Source of the DNA: Nitrospinota bacterium
GTDB taxonomy: Bacteria; 2-12-FULL-45-22; JACOWJ01
Direction of reading: 5' to 3'
Assembly: GCA_016176845.1 (NCBI GenBank)
Contig: JACOWJ010000025.1
Location: 5,364-69,363, forward strand
Length of the DNA stretch: 64,000 bases
Shown: piece after piece, positions 15,096 through 48,877 of the stretch
Layout: each line of letters starts with the position of its first letter
Position numbering within the stretch: position 1 is the stretch's first letter
The notes under the pieces: model-generated
The model's input: the letters and a program-made list of their open reading frames with translations, nothing else
Told to the model about the DNA's origin: nothing
Databases searched by the model: none
Program-made: the position numbers and the translations under genes

Positions 15096-15426
15096 CAAGT
15101 TAGGGAACAGGTTACAGGGGACAGGGAACAGGGATCGTCACTCCTTCCCCTTGTCTTTTTCCTCTTGTCTCGCGTTTATCTTCTCATCACTGTCCATCTG
15201 GTAAATCCTGTCCTTCCTGTTAAAATGGAAATTCCTATACGATCAAGTTAGCTCGTAGCTCGTAGCTCATAAAGGGCTGAGCTCCGAGCTGAAAAAGGAA
15301 ATTCGCTTAAATTAGCCCATGGCTCATGGCTCAAAGCTTTTGCTATGAACAATGAGCTACGAGCTATTTGGCTAACAGCAGGCTGAACTTCAAGCTGAAA
15401 ATAACAATTCCTCTAGGTTCAAGTGA
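15096..15426 (+). repeat. Tandem array of three different heptamer-hairpin cassettes
   Basis: CAAGTTA at 15096 and 15244; tails at 15222-15250, 15292-15314 (truncated) and 15398-15426 (degenerate). Confidence 0.75.
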
Positions 15427-15492: not shown

Positions 15493-15699
15493 CTAATTTC
15501 TCTTGCTGAGGACCCTCAGCGTCAGCCCCTTTCAGGGTCAGTAACCGACGAGGGCCGTTGCCACCAGAAAGACCCCCATGAAGGCCAGCAACCAACGGCT
15601 TCCTCCCTCAGCGATCCAGATTGCCAGCGCGACCGAGATGAGACCCAGGAGGATCCTCAGAACCTGCTCTCCTTTCCCCACGTTCTTTGCATCGATCAT
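15493..15699 (-). CDS. Putative selenoprotein, DUF2892/YgaP-like membrane protein with two in-frame TGA codons
   Basis: GGAGG RBS; MIDAKNVGKGEQVLRILLG...ALVGY-TGA-CCC-TGA-KGLTLRVLSKRN-TAG; first TGA lies at the family GxCP cysteine; selA and tRNA-Sec are in the window. Confidence 0.75.
15505..15526 (-). promoter_or_regulatory. Candidate bacterial SECIS hairpin
   Basis: GCUGAG-GGUC-CUCAGC starts 11 nt after the second UGA; a second GCUGA arm starts 11 nt after the first UGA. Confidence 0.6.
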
Positions 15700-15861
15700 A
15701 ATCTCCTCCGCAGCTTAGTGGTTCATTTAACCTACGCGGCGTCCCCCCGACAGGTGCGGGGAAAGGAGGCCGCTTCAATGAAAACCGCTTGTCGCTTAGT
15801 TTAACAGAGACTGCTTCTGATGACAAGGTGGCGGCTGAGGTTGACTTCCATGATCTGCTCG

Positions 15862-15945
15862 CAAGTTATGGATTAGGGATTAGGGGCTAGGGATTAGCAA
15901 AAGCTCTTCTTTCTTACTAGCCCCTAGCCCCTAGCCCCTAATTTA
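15862..15945. repeat. Heptamer hairpin, GGGCTAG type, without tail
   Basis: Same arms and loop as 24720-24804 and 52249-52364. Confidence 0.85.
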
Positions 15946-16032: not shown

Positions 16033-16212
16033 TTGGTAGTCGAGATCAATGCGGATGATTGTACGGGTTGCCAGGTGTGCGTGGATACCTGTCCGAACGG
16101 CGTGCTGGCCTTAGAGAATGACGTCTCGGTGGTAGAAAACCCCGATGATTGCGATGATTGTGGCTCTTGCATCGAGTCTTGTCCGATGGAAGCCATCGCC
16201 GAGACCAGCTGA
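16033..16212 (+). CDS. 2[4Fe-4S] ferredoxin, 59 aa, not in the ORF track
   Basis: GGAGG RBS, TTG start; CTGCQVCVDTCP and CDDCGSCIESCP. Confidence 0.9.
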   Translation: MVVEINADDCTGCQVCVDTCPNGVLALENDVSVVENPDDCDDCGSCIESCPMEAIAETS

Positions 16213-33591: not shown

Positions 33592-34617
33592 GTGCTGAAC
33601 AGCTGGCTGTCGGGGCTGATTATCAAGGGAATCGCAATCGATTTGGGTACGGCCAACACCCTAATCTATATCAAAAGCAAGGGCATTGTCTTGGACGAGC
33701 CTTCGGTTATCGCAATTTCTGAGAAAAATAGCTCCGTGTTAGCTGTAGGCCGGGAAGCCAAAGAAATGTACGGAAAGACCCCCGAGTTCATTCGGACCCT
33801 TCGACCTATAAAGGACGGGGTCGTCACGGATTTTGAGGTCACTCAACAGATGATCTCTTCCTTCATCCTGAGGGTCCTGAAAATCCCCTTCCTCAAGCGA
33901 ATTCGGATGATTATCGGCGTCCCCTCCGGTATCACCGAAGTGGAGAAACGGGCCGTGATCGAGGCAGCCAAAAAGGCCCAAGCATGGGAGGTTTACCTGA
34001 TCCCGGAGCCGATGGCCGCGGCCATTGGCTCCGGCCTTCCCATCCACGAGCCCACCGCCCATATGATTGTGGATATCGGAGGCGGGACCACGGAGGCCGC
34101 TGTTATCTGTTCTTACGTCGTCTCCTGTTGGCAATCAATCCGGGTGGGGGGAGATGAGATGGACGAAGCGATTGCTCATTATGTCCGGGAACGGTTCAAC
34201 ATAGACATCGATATTTTCGAGGCCGAGCGGGTCAAAAAGGCCATCGGTTGCGCGATATCCTTGGAAGAAAAGTCGGAAATTGATGTCCGGGGGAAGGATC
34301 TCTCCACCGAGATGCCGAAAATCATCCGGGTCGATAGCGAGATGATCCGTGAAAGCCTTCGGCCCACCCTGATGAGCATCGTTGAGGTAGTTCGCAGAAC
34401 CTTGGAACATATCTCTTCCGCCGTGGCGGCGGATATCTATGACAGGGGACTGACCATTGCCGGCGGTGGCTCCCTCTTGCGAGGCCTGGCTCCTTTCCTG
34501 GAGACAGAAATCAGCCTTCCCGTTCAAATCGCCAAGGATCCCCTGGTGGCCATTGTACGAGGAGCAGGCTTCGTCCTGGAGAATTTCTCCAGGTATCGAC
34601 GGGTCTGCATGCCCTAG
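33592..34617 (+). CDS. mreB: Rod shape-determining actin MreB
   Basis: IDLGTANT, EPSV, EPMAAAIG, DIGGGTT, GGDEMD. Confidence 0.9.
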   Translation: MLNSWLSGLIIKGIAIDLGTANTLIYIKSKGIVLDEPSVIAISEKNSSVLAVGREAKEMYGKTPEFIRTLRPIKDGVVTDFEVTQQMISSFILRVLKIPFLKRIRMIIGVPSGITEVEKRAVIEAAKKAQAWEVYLIPEPMAAAIGSGLPIHEPTAHMIVDIGGGTTEAAVICSYVVSCWQSIRVGGDEMDEAIAHYVRERFNIDIDIFEAERVKKAIGCAISLEEKSEIDVRGKDLSTEMPKIIRVDSEMIRESLRPTLMSIVEVVRRTLEHISSAVAADIYDRGLTIAGGGSLLRGLAPFLETEISLPVQIAKDPLVAIVRGAGFVLENFSRYRRVCMP

Positions 34618-35071: not shown

Positions 35072-35169
35072 TGGCGGAAGCGCGTGGGAGTCGAACCCAC
35101 CGAGGACTTTATTAGAGCCCGCCACTGGATTTGAAGTCCAGGAGGGACACCGGAACCCTTTGCGCTTCC
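35072..35169 (-). tRNA. selC: tRNA-Sec (anticodon UCA)
   Basis: 8-bp acceptor GGAAGCGC/GCGCTTCC, GGACTTCAAATCC anticodon arm, long variable arm, GGTTCGACTCC, encoded CCA. Confidence 0.95.
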
Positions 35170-35285: not shown

Positions 35286-36329
35286 TTAAAGCTGCTGCCA
35301 ATACTCCAGGGGCATGTCCATGGCCAACTTCAAGGCACCCTGGGCCCCGGCATAGATCGGATCGTCCACCACGATGACCTTTCCCCCGCCCAGATCCGCC
35401 ATGTTCTCTTCCAGAAGCTTATCCAGCCTCCGGATCTGGCTGCATCCCCCGGCCAGGATGACATTGTTGCGGAGCGTGGTCTGGAACTCCGGATCGAAAC
35501 TGCCGACCAGCTCACGGATAGCCTCCACGATGTCGGGCACGATGCTTTCGCAGGCCCGTTTCATCTCGTCGGTGACATCGTAGGGGACCAGCTTCCCCCT
35601 TACGGGGAATTCCGCCACCACGCCGTCCGGGGTATGAGAGACGAATCCGTGCTTTTCTTTGCAGAGGCGGGCCATATTCCGGGTTAGTTGGGCCTCCTTG
35701 CATTTCTCCTGCAGGAGCCGATAAAGCAGCTCGTCGATATAGTCCCCAGCTTTGAGGACCGTGCGCTGATCCTCCTCCTCAGGGATCGTACCATGCATCC
35801 GGCATAGATCGGTCGTTCCCGCTCCGATGTCAATGATCAGCCCGTACTTGAGGAAATCACGTCCGTAGGCCACAGTAAAGGGCTCGGAGACCACCATGGC
35901 CGCGTCCAGCACCTCCCGACTCGCATCGATCAGGGCCTCTTTGTTGAAGAGATTGGCACGAGCTGGCGCTCCGATCACCCCGTAGACCTTCTCGCCAGGT
36001 GTGGGCTCCGCCAGGCTGACCAGGTGTCGAACCAACTCCTTGGCCGCCTGGCGGGCCTGCCCCTTCTCTTCGGGGCTGGCGCTGCTCTCATCCTCCAGGG
36101 TGTGCTTGATTACCCCTTTCTCCAGAGGGCGGCAGAGATTCAAGAGCAGGCGGTTTTCCAAGGCCTCTTCCCCAAAAACGATGGACCGTTGGTTCATTAG
36201 CCTTTGAGCAATGGCATCTTTGGGCCACCCCACCAGGCTGAGCAAGGTCTTTTTCCCCCCTTTGCTGGTACAGATGGAGCTCCGAAAGGTCCCCAGGTCG
36301 ATCCCAATGTAGAGGTTCTCTCCTCTCAT
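35286..36329 (-). CDS. MamK-like actin ATPase (alternative start 36380)
   Basis: IGIDLGT, SLVGWPKD..FGEEALE..RPLEKGVI, VVSEPF, IDIGAGTTD, GGCSQI. Confidence 0.8.
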   Translation of the reverse strand: MRGENLYIGIDLGTFRSSICTSKGGKKTLLSLVGWPKDAIAQRLMNQRSIVFGEEALENRLLLNLCRPLEKGVIKHTLEDESSASPEEKGQARQAAKELVRHLVSLAEPTPGEKVYGVIGAPARANLFNKEALIDASREVLDAAMVVSEPFTVAYGRDFLKYGLIIDIGAGTTDLCRMHGTIPEEEDQRTVLKAGDYIDELLYRLLQEKCKEAQLTRNMARLCKEKHGFVSHTPDGVVAEFPVRGKLVPYDVTDEMKRACESIVPDIVEAIRELVGSFDPEFQTTLRNNVILAGGCSQIRRLDKLLEENMADLGGGKVIVVDDPIYAGAQGALKLAMDMPLEYWQQL

Positions 36330-36405
36330 CGCCCCTTCCTCCTTCATCGAAACAGGAGAGCCTTCTCCCTGCTCTACCATCGTCCTGTTCCTCCTATGGC
36401 CTCTG

Positions 36406-37097
36406 TCATTTCGGTTCCCCTTCGACATGGTTCAAACAAGAACGGATCTGCTCCAGGCCCTCCCTGAGGACTGCCAGGGCCTTTCGGACTTCTTCCTCTC
36501 GGCCGGGTCCTTTCCCCCGCAATTCGAGAGGAGCCTCTTTGGCCAGATTATTCTCTCCGCCCACTGGACGAGTTTTTTTTTTGTGCTGGCGACCACCCCT
36601 AACTTTTCCAGCTTCCAAAGACCTCCTTTCGGGCCTGGAGGATTTACCCCTCCTTGAATAGGCTCGCTCCCCTCGTCAGAACTGATGGGAACTTGCTCCA
36701 GAGATTCGGGGAAACCCCCCTCCACGCTGGGAGAATCCACCGAACCTTTTTTTCCCGTGAAAATGACCGAGTCTTCCATGAGCCCATTTTCCTGCTTGGG
36801 GGCGGTCAACTCGACTTTGCCATGGTTTAGTTCGCCCCTCTGAGGAGGTAGATCGCCCTGGCTGTCGCGGGCTCCGACCCCCTCCCCATTTCGGCTCAAG
36901 TCGATTCCGATACGGAGGCCTTCAGGCTCGCACCAGATACGGACGCAAACCTCCCTTTTCCCGTCGAGGAGCTCCTTCAATAGCTCTAACCATTCCATCA
37001 GGATCAGATCCCTCTGGACGGCGCTCCATCGAGCGAAGGCGACCGTCGCGTAAGGTTCCCTGGCGCGAGGAAGAGGACCCAAAATGGTGAGGGCCAA
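36406..37097 (-). CDS. Hypothetical protein upstream of the MamK-like gene; possible slippage at an A10 tract
   Basis: Overlapping ORFs 36432-37097 and 36406-36618 meet at T10 (36573-36582). Confidence 0.45.
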
Positions 37098-47416: not shown

Positions 47417-48877
47417 ATGGCTGAGATCACCTTAGAACAGGCCAAGAGGAGGCAGTTGCGCGGCCTTCCATCGGTCGACGAGCTCCTCCAGAAGCTGAGC
47501 TCGCTGGAAGGCATCGGGGAACGATCCCGCCGGCGGATGGTCGAGTCGATCCGGGAGGTGCTGGAGAGGCTGAGGCGGTCCATCTTGCAGGCCGATACCC
47601 TGTCCCGGTTGAACGATATCGACCTGTCAGAAGGCCATCTCCTTCAGGAGGTGGAGGGACAAGTAGCCCGCCAGGAGGCCCCCAGCCTGAGGCGGGTGAT
47701 CAACGCCACCGGCATCATCCTCCACACGAATTTAGGCAGGGCCCTCCTCCCCCAGGCAGCCTTGGAGAACCTGGTTGCCATTGGCAAATATTATTCCAAC
47801 CTCGAGTATGACCTGCTCAGCGGCGAGCGGGGCTCTCGGCACAGCCACGTCGAGGAGCTCATGCGGCGCCTGACGGGGGCTGAGGCCGCCCTCTCGGTCA
47901 ACAACAATGCCGCCGCCGTCCTCCTCTCGCTGGACACCTTGGCCCAGGGCCAGGAGGTGATCGTCTCCCGGGGGCAACTGGTGGAGATCGGGGGCTCCTT
48001 TCGGATCCCGGACATCATGAAGAAGAGCGGGGCCCGGCTGGTGGAGGTGGGAACCACCAATAAGACCCGCATGGAGGATTATCGGGCGGCGATCACTCCC
48101 GAGACCGCCCTGCTCCTGAAGGTCCACACCAGCAACTTTCGGGTAGTGGGGTTCACCGCCGAAGCGAGCCGGGAGGAGCTGGTGGAGCTGGGCCGCCAGC
48201 ACCAGCTGCCGGTTATGGAGGATCTGGGCAGCGGCAACTTCATCGATCTCGCCCGGTACGGCCTTGCCGCGGAACCCACGGTCCAGGAGGTAGTCCGGGC
48301 CGGGGTCGATTTGGTGACCTTCAGCGGCGACAAATTGCTGGGAGGGCCCCAGGCGGGCGTTATCCTGGGCCGGCAAGATTTGATCGGTCGGATCAAAAAA
48401 AACCCTCTCACCCGCGCCCTGAGGATCGATAAGCTCACCCTGGCGGCGTTGGAATCCACGCTCCGCCTATACCTGGACGAAGAAGTGGCCATCCAGCAGA
48501 TCCCCACCCTCCGGATGCTCACCGCATCCCCTCAGGCGGTGGAGAAGCGGTGCAAGGCCCTCCTCCGGAAGACGCAACGCCTGAATGGGAGGAGGATCGC
48601 TGAGAATAGGTATCCTCTCGAGGTCCTCATCCTGGACGAACACTCCCAGGCAGGGGGAGGCTCCCTGCCCCTGGAGCTCCTGCCCACCAAGGTCCTGGCG
48701 TTACGATCCCCCACCGCTTCCTCGGAGACCCTGGAGCGACTCTTCCGGGCGAACGAGCCGCCCATCCTGGGCCGTCTCCAGAAAGACTTCCTCTACCTCG
48801 ATCTTCGTACCGTGCAAGAGGAAGAGGAGGTCGAGCTCCTCCAGGCCATCGAGCGGGTGGCTCAGGAATTGGGGTGA
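47417..48877 (+). CDS. selA: L-seryl-tRNA(Sec) selenium transferase
   Basis: VINATGIILHTNLGRA, VNNNAAA, EIGGSFRIPD, FSGDKLLGGPQ. Confidence 0.96.
   Translation: MAEITLEQAKRRQLRGLPSVDELLQKLSSLEGIGERSRRRMVESIREVLERLRRSILQADTLSRLNDIDLSEGHLLQEVEGQVARQEAPSLRRVINATGIILHTNLGRALLPQAALENLVAIGKYYSNLEYDLLSGERGSRHSHVEELMRRLTGAEAALSVNNNAAAVLLSLDTLAQGQEVIVSRGQLVEIGGSFRIPDIMKKSGARLVEVGTTNKTRMEDYRAAITPETALLLKVHTSNFRVVGFTAEASREELVELGRQHQLPVMEDLGSGNFIDLARYGLAAEPTVQEVVRAGVDLVTFSGDKLLGGPQAGVILGRQDLIGRIKKNPLTRALRIDKLTLAALESTLRLYLDEEVAIQQIPTLRMLTASPQAVEKRCKALLRKTQRLNGRRIAENRYPLEVLILDEHSQAGGGSLPLELLPTKVLALRSPTASSETLERLFRANEPPILGRLQKDFLYLDLRTVQEEEEVELLQAIERVAQELG

What the first reader, a model, noticed from the sequence alone, without database searches (positions are those of the whole stretch)
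15493..15699. Hidden membrane selenoprotein with a U-P-U motif
Seen: a 68-codon minus-strand ORF with a strong RBS, absent from the ORF track: MIDAKNVGKGEQVLRILLGLISVALAIWIAEGGSRWLLAFMGVFLVATALVGY-TGA-P-TGA-KGLTLRVLSKRN-TAG. Established: DUF2892/YgaP-type membrane domains begin with NVG..R..R and end in G[FYW]CP; the genome has selA and tRNA-Sec. Inference: the first TGA is Sec, and the second is either Sec (two selenocysteines one residue apart) or the stop. I cannot confirm whether this family is already listed as a selenoprotein.
Basis: partly seen in the sequence, partly recalled or inferred. Interest (0 to 1): 0.85.

Follow-up and report, generated by a model that had tools for sequence, protein, structure and literature searches.

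The report
Two-selenocysteine DUF2892 membrane protein gene
This is a real gene for a tiny two-helix membrane protein in which two "stop" codons one codon apart are most likely both read as selenocysteine with the help of one RNA hairpin; it belongs to a widespread family that databases cut short and that current selenoprotein catalogues do not list.

Summary
Window 15699-15493 (-) reads MIDAKNVG...VGY-TGA-CCC-TGA-KGLTLRVLSKRN-TAG behind a GGAGGAG ribosome-binding site, and it matches Pfam PF11127 (YgaP-like_TM/DUF2892, E 4.5e-14).

The first TGA sits where Cys-type relatives have the Cys of G[FYW]-C-P. The same TGA-CCN-TGA-AAR arrangement and tail (K-G-F/L-x-L-K/R-V-F/L-S-K) recur in 45 genome contigs and 69 of 74 distinct metagenome contigs. 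These come from Thermodesulfobacteriota, Nitrospinota, Methylomirabilia and Acidobacteriota.

A 6-7 bp hairpin with a GGUC loop, as in E. coli fdhF, starts 17 nt after TGA1 and 11 nt after TGA2. It shows A-U/G-C compensatory changes. The genome has tRNA-Sec, selA, selB and selD.

Evidence that the second TGA is also decoded:
- Codon 56 is never TAA, TAG or TGY.
- Codon-like periodicity continues in frame after it.
- The tail aligns with the tails of Cys-type relatives.

No experiment exists, and function is inferred only. A 2026 catalogue of prokaryotic selenoproteins, the deep-Sep supplements and NCBIfam do not hold this family.

Verdict: a new selenoprotein family with an unusual U-P-U site. 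Probability about 0.9 for the first Sec and about 0.7 for both.

The parts
15798..15826 (-). Candidate sigma-70-like promoter (TTGTCA-17-TAAACT with a TG extension), about 100 nt upstream of the start codon
   Evidence: Consensus scan only; not evidence of function.
15703..15709 (-). Ribosome-binding site GGAGGAG, 3 nt (ATT) between its last G and the ATG
   Evidence: Read directly from the sequence.
15493..15699 (-). Full coding sequence: 68 codons plus TAG, a DUF2892/YgaP-like_TM protein with U54-P55-U56
   Evidence: Homologues with the same architecture appear.
15610..15663 (-). Predicted transmembrane helix 1 (about residues 13-30)
   Evidence: Hydrophobic stretch in the sequence. The AlphaFold model has a helix at 9-28, but its mean pLDDT is only 64.6.
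15541..15594 (-). Predicted transmembrane helix 2 (about residues 36-53), ending in G-Y just before the first TGA
   Evidence: Sequence, and AlphaFold helix 34-51.
15538..15540 (-). TGA1 (codon 54): predicted selenocysteine at the position of the family's conserved Cys (G[FYW]-C-P)
   Evidence: Pfam alignment and alignment with Cys-type homologues. Conserved as TGA in all family members found.
15532..15534 (-). TGA2 (codon 56): probably a second selenocysteine; the rival reading is a stop
   Evidence: TGA in 69 of 69 family loci collected without constraining this codon. Coding periodicity continues after it. It lies 11 nt upstream of the hairpin, which is the E. coli fdhF spacing as I recall it.
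15496..15531 (-). C-terminal tail KGLTLRVLSKRN (codons 57-68): basic and amphipathic, probably cytoplasmic
   Evidence: Conserved as K-G-F/L-x-L-K/R-V-F/L-S-K in the family. It aligns with the tails of Cys-type relatives. AlphaFold gives a helix at 55-67 with low confidence.
15505..15520 (-). SECIS-like hairpin GCUGAG-GGUC-CUCAGC (loop at 15514-15511), inside the tail codons T60-S65
   Evidence: Folding of the single sequence. The consensus structure of 18 homologues has A-U to G-C compensatory changes. selD in the same genome has the same (G)GUC-loop motif.
35072..35169 (-). tRNA-Sec (anticodon TCA)
   Evidence: ARAGORN.
47456..48853 (+). selA (selenocysteine synthase)
   Evidence: TIGR00474 scores 608.5 bits, over its cut-off, at G000:C61:52819-54216; coordinates converted to the window.

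Best explanation
The gene encodes a 68-residue, two-helix inner-membrane protein of the DUF2892/YgaP-like_TM family.

Decoding. UGA54 replaces the family's one conserved cysteine (G-[FYW]-C-P). UGA56 lies one proline later. I propose that both are read as selenocysteine by SelB.Sec-tRNASec, directed by a single SECIS hairpin (GCUGAG-GGUC-CUCAGC). The hairpin begins 17 nt after the first UGA and 11 nt after the second, and it also encodes part of the conserved tail.

Product. The result is a U-P-U site at the break between helix 2 and a basic amphipathic C-terminal helix. By the positive-inside rule this site faces the cytoplasm.

What is shown:
- the sequence architecture;
- family membership;
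- alignment of TGA1 with the family Cys;
- conservation of both TGAs, the hairpin and the tail in over 100 loci;
- Sec machinery in the genome.

What is inferred:
- that both UGAs are actually decoded as Sec;
- the membrane topology;
- the function. My best guess is a vicinal diselenol/diselenide centre. It would accept or pass on sulfane sulfur or selenium, or bind a soft metal or metalloid, at the membrane surface. This is by analogy with the thiol chemistry expected of the family's conserved Cys and with C-P-C sites.
For: Family and the Sec/Cys pair:
- PF11127 E 4.5e-14.
- TGA1 aligns with the Cys of GFCP/GYCP in Cys-type homologues.

Recurrence:
- 2-TGA homologues in G001 (same order) and G007 (sequences).
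- Close relatives L009 and L010 carry synonymous changes in the tail (GGG/GGT/GGA Gly, AAG/AAA Lys) and stop at the same position.
- 45 genome contigs.
- 69 of 74 distinct metagenome contigs.
- 15 hits in 14 of 401 evenly sampled genomes of one phylum, none with only one internal TGA.

TGA2 is not an ordinary stop:
- Codon 56 is never TAA or TAG.
- Terminal stops are TAG 16 / TGA 15 / TAA 14 and TAA 35 / TAG 26 / TGA 9.
- The genome's own long frames end in TGA only 38% of the time.

Coding signal after TGA2:
- Codons 58-60 are GGN / NTN / NTG.
- Entropy by codon position is 0.42/0.51/1.58 and 1.27/0.31/1.52, the same pattern as Gly and hydrophobic codons upstream.
- HMMER aligns the tail to real tails of Cys-type paralogues (query 2-67).
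- One Cys-type relative has C-P-C (P0015).

SECIS:
- A 7-pair consensus hairpin with a GGUC loop and compensatory AU to GC changes.
- selD of this genome uses the same loop motif 24 nt after its UGA, so the spacing this SelB tolerates spans at least 11-24 nt.

Machinery:
- tRNA-Sec, selB at 377.6 bits, selA at 608.5 bits, and selD at 381.1 bits with its own TGA.
- Of the 18 other carrier genomes checked, 17 have selA or selB.
Against: - There is no experimental evidence.
- Codons 60-65 are also the hairpin, so their conservation cannot separate protein constraint from RNA constraint. The coding-signal argument rests mainly on codons 57-59 and 66.
- No orthologue with Cys at 54 or 56 and the same KGF.LKVFSK tail was found.
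- Two SelB deliveries only two codons apart from one hairpin have not been demonstrated to my knowledge, and termination at UGA56 may compete.
- The hairpin has no bulged U like E. coli fdhF, and no Rfam family matched.
- The AlphaFold model has low confidence (pLDDT 64.6).
- Neighbouring genes are not conserved, so function is unsupported by context.
Confidence: 0.7

Rival explanations
1. Only the first UGA is selenocysteine. UGA56 is the real stop, so the product is a 55-residue protein ending ...G-Y-U-P. The conserved 'tail' would then be just the SECIS element lying in the 3' untranslated region.
For: The hairpin overlaps codons 60-65, so much of the tail's conservation could be RNA constraint. 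No Cys-form orthologue with this tail was found. Families with Sec very near the C-terminus are catalogued, for example KCU-star and GUXX-star (PMC13188914).
Against: - Codon 56 is TGA in all 69 unconstrained family loci and never TAA or TAG, although real terminal stops turn over freely.
- Codons 57-59 and 66 show third-position wobble with fixed first and second positions.
- The tail aligns with translated tails of Cys-type paralogues.
- UGA56 sits at the fdhF-like 11-nt distance from the hairpin, which would make it a poor terminator.
- Two contig-end variants (L169 U-L-L-KGF..., L128 U-L-KGF...) keep the tail in frame without a second TGA.
Confidence: 0.2
2. The gene really ends at the first TGA, giving a 53-residue DUF2892 fragment as annotated in databases. 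The downstream hairpin would be a terminator or other RNA element.
For: Public gene calls stop at TGA1 in over 100 protein clusters.
Against: - Truncation removes the family's one conserved Cys-Pro motif exactly at the Cys position.
- The downstream frame, the hairpin and the second TGA are conserved across phyla.
- The hairpin is not followed by a U-run.
- The Sec machinery is present.
Confidence: 0.05
3. Artefact: a sequencing or assembly error, a pseudogene, or a genome in which TGA is a sense codon (code 4/25), as three gene callers assumed when they printed W-P-W.
For: P0006, P0012 and P0053 were called with TGA=W.
Against: - Over 100 independent assemblies carry the identical double TGA.
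- In G000, TGA ends 387 of 1030 long open frames.
- selA and selB have no internal stops.
- The flanking coding sequence is under purifying selection.
Confidence: 0.02

Closest known systems
Cys-type DUF2892 / YgaP-like_TM proteins (Pfam PF11127), e.g. P0007, P0011 and the paralogues in G340, G392 and G190
   Same: Same length (about 65-70 aa). Same N-terminal K-N-[VM]-G-x-x-[ED]-R-x-x-R motif. Two hydrophobic helices. G-[FYW]-(C/U)-P at the end of helix 2, followed by a short tail rich in Lys.
   Different: Cys is replaced by Sec. The residue two positions later, normally L, A or M followed by Tyr, is a second Sec. The tail is K-G-F-x-L-K-V-F-S-K instead of [LA]-Y-x-L-[LF]-G-I-S-T, and it doubles as a SECIS.
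E. coli YgaP (membrane-bound rhodanese, namesake of the Pfam family)
   Same: Shares the two-helix C-terminal membrane domain type (the Pfam family name; what is known of YgaP is from my memory).
   Different: The window protein has no rhodanese domain, since Pfam finds only PF11127. A profile of the Sec-type family did not reach any PDB chain. It is not a YgaP orthologue.
E. coli fdhF SECIS / SelB-dependent UGA recoding
   Same: A hairpin directly downstream of the UGA, inside the reading frame. GGUC apical loop closed by A-U or G-C. 11-nt spacer to UGA56. The fdhF features are from my memory; the hairpin itself is shown.
   Different: No bulged U. One hairpin appears to serve two UGAs 6 nt apart, with spacers of 17 and 11 nt.
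Catalogued double-Sec bacterial selenoproteins with close spacing: metal-binding protein NF041115 (UxxU) and TsoB (UxxxxU), listed in PMC13188914
   Same: Two Sec residues a few positions apart in one short motif.
   Different: Different protein families. The spacing here is U-x-U, in a membrane protein. PF11127 and U-P-U are absent from that table.
C-P-C sites of P1B-type metal ATPases and of Mia40 (recalled from memory; a lead, not a test)
   Same: Two chalcogen residues separated by one proline, at or in a membrane helix (the ATPases) or acting as a redox-active pair (Mia40).
   Different: No homology. Selenium takes the place of sulfur. No transport or oxidoreductase domain is attached.

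Membership tests
Pfam PF11127 YgaP-like_TM (DUF2892) | Profile HMM score above the curated gathering threshold | tested here: met
   52.8 bits against a 25.3-bit cut-off, E 4.5e-14, residues 5-56 on profile positions 3-54 of 66.
Pfam PF11127 YgaP-like_TM (DUF2892) | Conserved G-[FYW]-C-P at the end of the second helix | tested here: met
   G-Y-U-P, with TGA in the Cys column of the alignment with Cys-type members.
Pfam PF11127 YgaP-like_TM (DUF2892) | Two transmembrane helices | tested here: inconclusive
   Two hydrophobic stretches. AlphaFold gives helices at 9-28 and 34-51, but pLDDT is only 64.6. No topology experiment exists.
Bacterial SelB/SECIS-dependent selenoprotein | In-frame UGA aligned with Cys in homologues (a Sec/Cys pair) | tested here: met
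   UGA54 against the family Cys. For UGA56 only one Cys-type relative has Cys (C-P-C in P0015).
Bacterial SelB/SECIS-dependent selenoprotein | Stem-loop with G/U in the apical loop shortly downstream of the UGA | tested here: met
   A 6-7 bp stem with a GGUC loop, 17 and 11 nt after the two UGAs. It is conserved, with compensatory changes. No Rfam model matched.
Bacterial SelB/SECIS-dependent selenoprotein | Reading frame conserved as protein downstream of the UGA | tested here: met
   The tail is conserved. Codon periodicity shows at codons 55, 57-59 and 66. The tail aligns with Cys-type tails.
Bacterial SelB/SECIS-dependent selenoprotein | tRNA-Sec, SelA, SelB and SelD in the same genome | tested here: met
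   Of the 18 other carrier genomes checked, 17 have selA or selB. selA is present in 371 of 401 genomes of that phylum, so co-occurrence does not discriminate there.
Bacterial SelB/SECIS-dependent selenoprotein | Selenium demonstrably incorporated into the protein | not testable with these tools
   Needs 75Se labelling or mass spectrometry.
E. coli YgaP-type rhodanese membrane protein | N-terminal rhodanese domain | tested here: not met
   Only PF11127 was found in the 68-aa protein.
Catalogued prokaryotic selenoprotein families | Listed in current catalogues or covered by an NCBIfam selenoprotein model | tested here: not met
   No DUF2892, YgaP, PF11127 or UxU entry in PMC13188914 or in BSepDB's text. 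None in the deep-Sep supplements or Haft's 2022 preprint. No paper holds both 'DUF2892' and 'selenoprotein'. No NCBIfam hit.

The most novel reading that the evidence does not exclude
A single bacterial SECIS hairpin programs two selenocysteine insertions only one codon apart. This would create a membrane-surface U-P-U diselenol/diselenide centre in a widespread, uncatalogued family of about 65-75-residue proteins, up to three copies per genome, in anaerobic sediment and groundwater bacteria. It would be a selenium version of a C-P-C redox or metal site.
Probability: 0.6. Interest if true: 0.75.

Novelty: new member of a known kind. Interest (0 to 1): 0.65.

Why it matters
- It would add a widespread membrane selenoprotein family to the bacterial selenoproteome. 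I found over 100 protein clusters, and about 3.5% of genomes in one evenly sampled phylum carry it. Gene callers truncate it at 49-55 residues or misread it with TGA=W, and some records label it 'predicted phage tail protein'.
- U-x-U served by one hairpin is a natural test case for how far SelB/SECIS geometry can stretch (spacers of 17 and 11 nt), and for whether a second SelB complex can reload within two codons.
- It gives the poorly understood DUF2892 family a sharp functional hint. Its single conserved Cys is important enough to be upgraded to Sec, which points to redox, chalcogen-transfer or soft-metal chemistry at the cytoplasmic membrane face.

Tried and rejected
- Rfam scan of the region at E up to 10: only chance hits, no SECIS family.
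- NCBIfam: no family.
- PDB sequence search with the family profile: nothing significant, and YgaP was not reached.
- AlphaFold2 on a 34-sequence alignment: helix-helix-helix, but mean pLDDT was 64.6, so I ran no fold search.
- Conserved gene neighbourhood: none. The window clade sits between a divergent 2[4Fe-4S] ferredoxin and def/ybaK. Other loci have flavodoxin/FMN_red within 2 kb (three of three loci in one clade), a Fer4-nitroreductase, an OYE, an amidohydrolase, an acyl-CoA dehydrogenase or a cyclophilin. This is too loose to use.
- Co-occurrence with selA within the phylum: uninformative, because 371 of 401 genomes have selA.
- My own crude genome-wide scan for UGA plus a GGUC hairpin in G000: apart from the DUF2892 gene itself, the ten hits I translated were wrong-frame artefacts, and selD was missed because its loop folds as GUC.
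- Word-based search for a Cys-form orthologue carrying the KGF.LKVFSK tail: none among 110 hits.
- Loci other than the first of each batch were not visible in the Python box. I worked around this by analysing the alignment files.

Full report
**1. What is in the sequence**

On the minus strand an ATG at 15699 follows GGAGGAG (15709-15703). It opens a frame of 53 sense codons, then TGA (15540-15538), CCC, TGA (15534-15532), twelve more sense codons and TAG (15495-15493). Standard ORF listing shows only the 53-codon piece.

With the TGAs read as Cys, the protein matches Pfam PF11127 (YgaP-like_TM, formerly DUF2892). The score is 52.8 bits against a cut-off of 25.3, over residues 5-56. NCBIfam has no model for it.

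**2. The first TGA is at the family's cysteine**

Cys-type members end their second hydrophobic helix with G-[FYW]-C-P. A tail of 10-15 residues follows, typically [LA]-Y-x-L-[LF]-G-[IM]-x-T or A-Y-A-L-F-K-V-S-T-Q-K-K-K. In a MAFFT alignment, TGA54 falls in the Cys column and Pro55 in the Pro column. This is the classic Sec/Cys signature.

**3. The arrangement is a family trait, not an accident**

- A six-frame search of 60 relatives found two homologues, each with two internal TGAs, in G001 (same order) and G007. Their sequences read Y-TGA-CCC-TGA-KGLMLKVFSSK-TAG and H-TGA-CCA-TGA-KKMLLRSSAQGNTEEK-TAG.
- Two near-identical metagenome contigs share the window's synteny (ferredoxin / this gene / def / ybaK). 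They carry synonymous changes in the tail (Gly GGG/GGT/GGA, Lys AAG/AAA) and stop at the same codon.
- Three database proteins print W-P-W because the gene caller assumed TGA=W. Two of them were looked up, and their DNA is TGA-CCN-TGA.
- A DNA-pattern scan of species-representative genomes returned 45 true family members. They come from Syntrophaceae, Desulfobacteraceae, Syntrophobacterales, Syntrophorhabdus, other Thermodesulfobacteriota, Nitrospinota, Methylomirabilia and Solibacteraceae. One MAG holds up to three copies.
- G001's contig bears the title 'Nitrospinae bacterium RIFCSPLOWO2_12_FULL_45_22'. This places the window's organism near that lineage.
- A metagenome scan used a pattern that fixed only the hairpin and AAR-GG, leaving codons 54-56 free. 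It gave 74 distinct loci, of which 69 read TGA-CCN-TGA.
- In an even sample of 401 genomes of one phylum, 14 genomes carry 15 two-TGA copies. None carries a form with exactly one internal TGA, and about 40 hits are Cys-type. The lone '1 TGA' hit was a Cys-type gene with its terminal stop included.
- More than 100 protein clusters in the public collection are truncated at G-Y. Some are labelled 'predicted phage tail protein'.

**4. Is the second TGA read?**

Evidence for decoding:

- Codon 56 is never TAA, TAG or TGY in the unconstrained sample. The genes' final stops are TAA 35 / TAG 26 / TGA 9 there, and TAG 16 / TGA 15 / TAA 14 in the genome set. In the window's own genome, TGA ends only 38% of long open frames.
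- The codons between TGA2 and the hairpin behave like codons. Pro55 is CCN with all four third bases. Lys57 is AAR. Codon 58 is GGN with all four third bases plus a few Ser, Ala, Arg, Gln or Lys. Codon 59 is NTN and codon 60 is NTG or ACG.
- Entropies by codon position are 0.42/0.51/1.58 for codon 58 and 1.27/0.31/1.52 for codon 59. This is the same signature as Gly42 and the hydrophobic codons of helix 2.
- HMMER aligns the Sec-type query through residue 67 with Cys-type paralogues. Their translated tails (A-Y-A-L-F-K-V-S-T-Q-K-K-K) have the same length and character.
- One Cys-type relative has C-P-C (P0015).
- Two variants, U-L-L-KGFLLKVFSK and U-L-KGFTLKVFSK, lack the second TGA but keep the tail in frame. 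Both lie at contig ends, so I give them little weight.
- TGA2, not TGA1, sits 11 nt before the hairpin. As I recall, that is the spacing of E. coli fdhF. A plain terminator there would be leaky.

Evidence against decoding:

- Codons 60-65 are the hairpin itself, so their conservation is ambiguous.
- No orthologue with Cys at these positions and the same tail was found.
- Nothing has been measured.

I put both-Sec at about 0.7 and Sec-then-stop at about 0.2.

**5. The SECIS**

In the window the hairpin is GCUGAG-GGUC-CUCAGC (15520-15505). Most relatives have (U)GCUGAA-GGUC-UUCAGC(A), and two Nitrospinota have GCUGAGGUC(C/A)UCAGC.

RNAalifold on 18 diverse members predicts seven pairs. Two of them keep pairing through changes on both sides, A-U to G-C.

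The genome's selD, itself with an in-frame TGA in G-A-G-U-A-C-K, has CUGGCGCAG-GUC-CUGCGCCAG starting 24 nt after its UGA. The same loop motif therefore works at spacers from 11 to 24 nt in this organism. This makes decoding of both UGA54 (17 nt) and UGA56 (11 nt) plausible. Rfam has no matching model.

**6. Machinery**

- tRNA-Sec is in the window at 35072-35169.
- selA is in the window at 47456-48853, at 608.5 bits.
- selB (377.6 bits) and selD (381.1 bits) are on other contigs.
- Among the 14 carriers of the phylum sample, 10 have selA. Of the other four, three have selB.
- G001, G007, the Solibacteraceae MAG and the Methylomirabilia MAG all have selB.
- selA is present in 371 of 401 genomes of that phylum, so co-occurrence there proves little.

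**7. Protein and likely function**

The N-terminus and the tail are basic, and the inter-helix loop (EGGSR) is short. By the positive-inside rule both ends are cytoplasmic, and U-P-U sits at the cytoplasmic end of helix 2.

AlphaFold2 gives helices at 9-28, 34-51 and 55-67, with a break at G-Y-U. Confidence is low, with a mean pLDDT of 64.6.

Neighbouring genes differ from locus to locus, so the gene stands alone. A loose recurrence of ferredoxin, flavodoxin and flavoenzyme genes is noted but not relied on.

The most likely role is a diselenol/diselenide centre at the membrane surface, acting in redox or sulfur/selenium relay or in binding a soft metal or metalloid. This is inference from three things:
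- the Sec-for-Cys replacement;
- the family's link to rhodanese-type sulfur chemistry in YgaP (from memory);
- the resemblance to C-P-C sites (from memory).

**8. Novelty**

- No paper in the library holds both 'DUF2892' and 'selenoprotein'.
- The 2026 review with a table of prokaryotic selenoprotein families (PMC13188914) has no DUF2892, YgaP, PF11127, UxU or UPU entry. It does list close double-Sec motifs in other families: UxxU in NF041115 and UxxxxU in TsoB.
- BSepDB's text, the deep-Sep supplements and Haft's 2022 preprint do not mention the family.
- Earlier notes of this scan have met the same family in other genomes and read it the same way. They are not independent evidence.

I class it as a new member of a known kind, that is, a new selenoprotein family using the known SelB/SECIS mechanism. 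The U-P-U site on one hairpin is an unusual feature.

**9. Limits**

All carriers are uncultured.

Noticed in passing
window 15102-15134, 15249-15268, 15318-15333, 15866-15897, 15917-15940: Short tandem heptamer arrays (AGGGAAC x4.7, TAGCTCG x2.9, CATGGCT x2.3, TTAGGGA x4.6, CTAGCCC x3.4) fill the intergenic DNA on both sides of the gene. The spacer to def is 417 nt here but only about 25-65 nt in the close relatives L009 and L010. The repeat-bearing DNA therefore looks recently expanded. It is reminiscent of cyanobacterial STRR heptamers (from memory).
   Followed up: partly
G000:C23:19348-20271 (-), outside the window: selD of this genome has an in-frame TGA (…SHGAG-U-ACKL…) followed 24 nt later by a 9-bp hairpin with a (G)GUC loop. 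SelD is thus itself a selenoprotein here.
   Followed up: partly
window 33592-34617 (+) and 35286-36428 (-), flanking tRNA-Sec: A canonical MreB (E 8e-122) and a divergent MreB/actin-like protein (E 6e-16, with weak Salactin and Actin hits) lie on either side of the tRNA-Sec gene.
   Followed up: no
public protein records P0056, P0058, P0063 and others; P0006, P0012, P0053: Truncated copies of this family are labelled 'predicted phage tail protein', 'ABC-type sugar transport permease' or 'VIT1/CCC1 transporter' by one source. Three copies were called with TGA=W and print W-P-W. These are annotation artefacts worth correcting.
   Followed up: yes
L032, L065, L076 (one MAG); L044, L060 (one MAG); L237, L238 (one sample): Several genomes carry two or three diverged copies of the two-TGA gene. 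Some also carry a Cys-type paralogue in the same genome (G340, G392, G190, G368).
   Followed up: partly
L182:983-1123 and L179:4083-4223 (metagenome contigs): L182 has the family's tail and hairpin (…S-C-P-L-KGFLLKVFSKGGEKKE) behind an upstream sequence that is not DUF2892-like and contains stops. It may be a remnant or a recombined copy. L179 has G-K-G-T-V-L-K-V-F-S inside an unrelated GC-rich frame.
   Followed up: no
L236, L237, L238; window 16033-16212 (+); L037:6402-7283: Small low-potential electron carriers or flavoenzymes (flavodoxin/FMN_red, 2[4Fe-4S] ferredoxin, Fer4-nitroreductase) lie within about 2 kb of the gene in several otherwise unrelated neighbourhoods. This may be chance in anaerobes.
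   Followed up: partly
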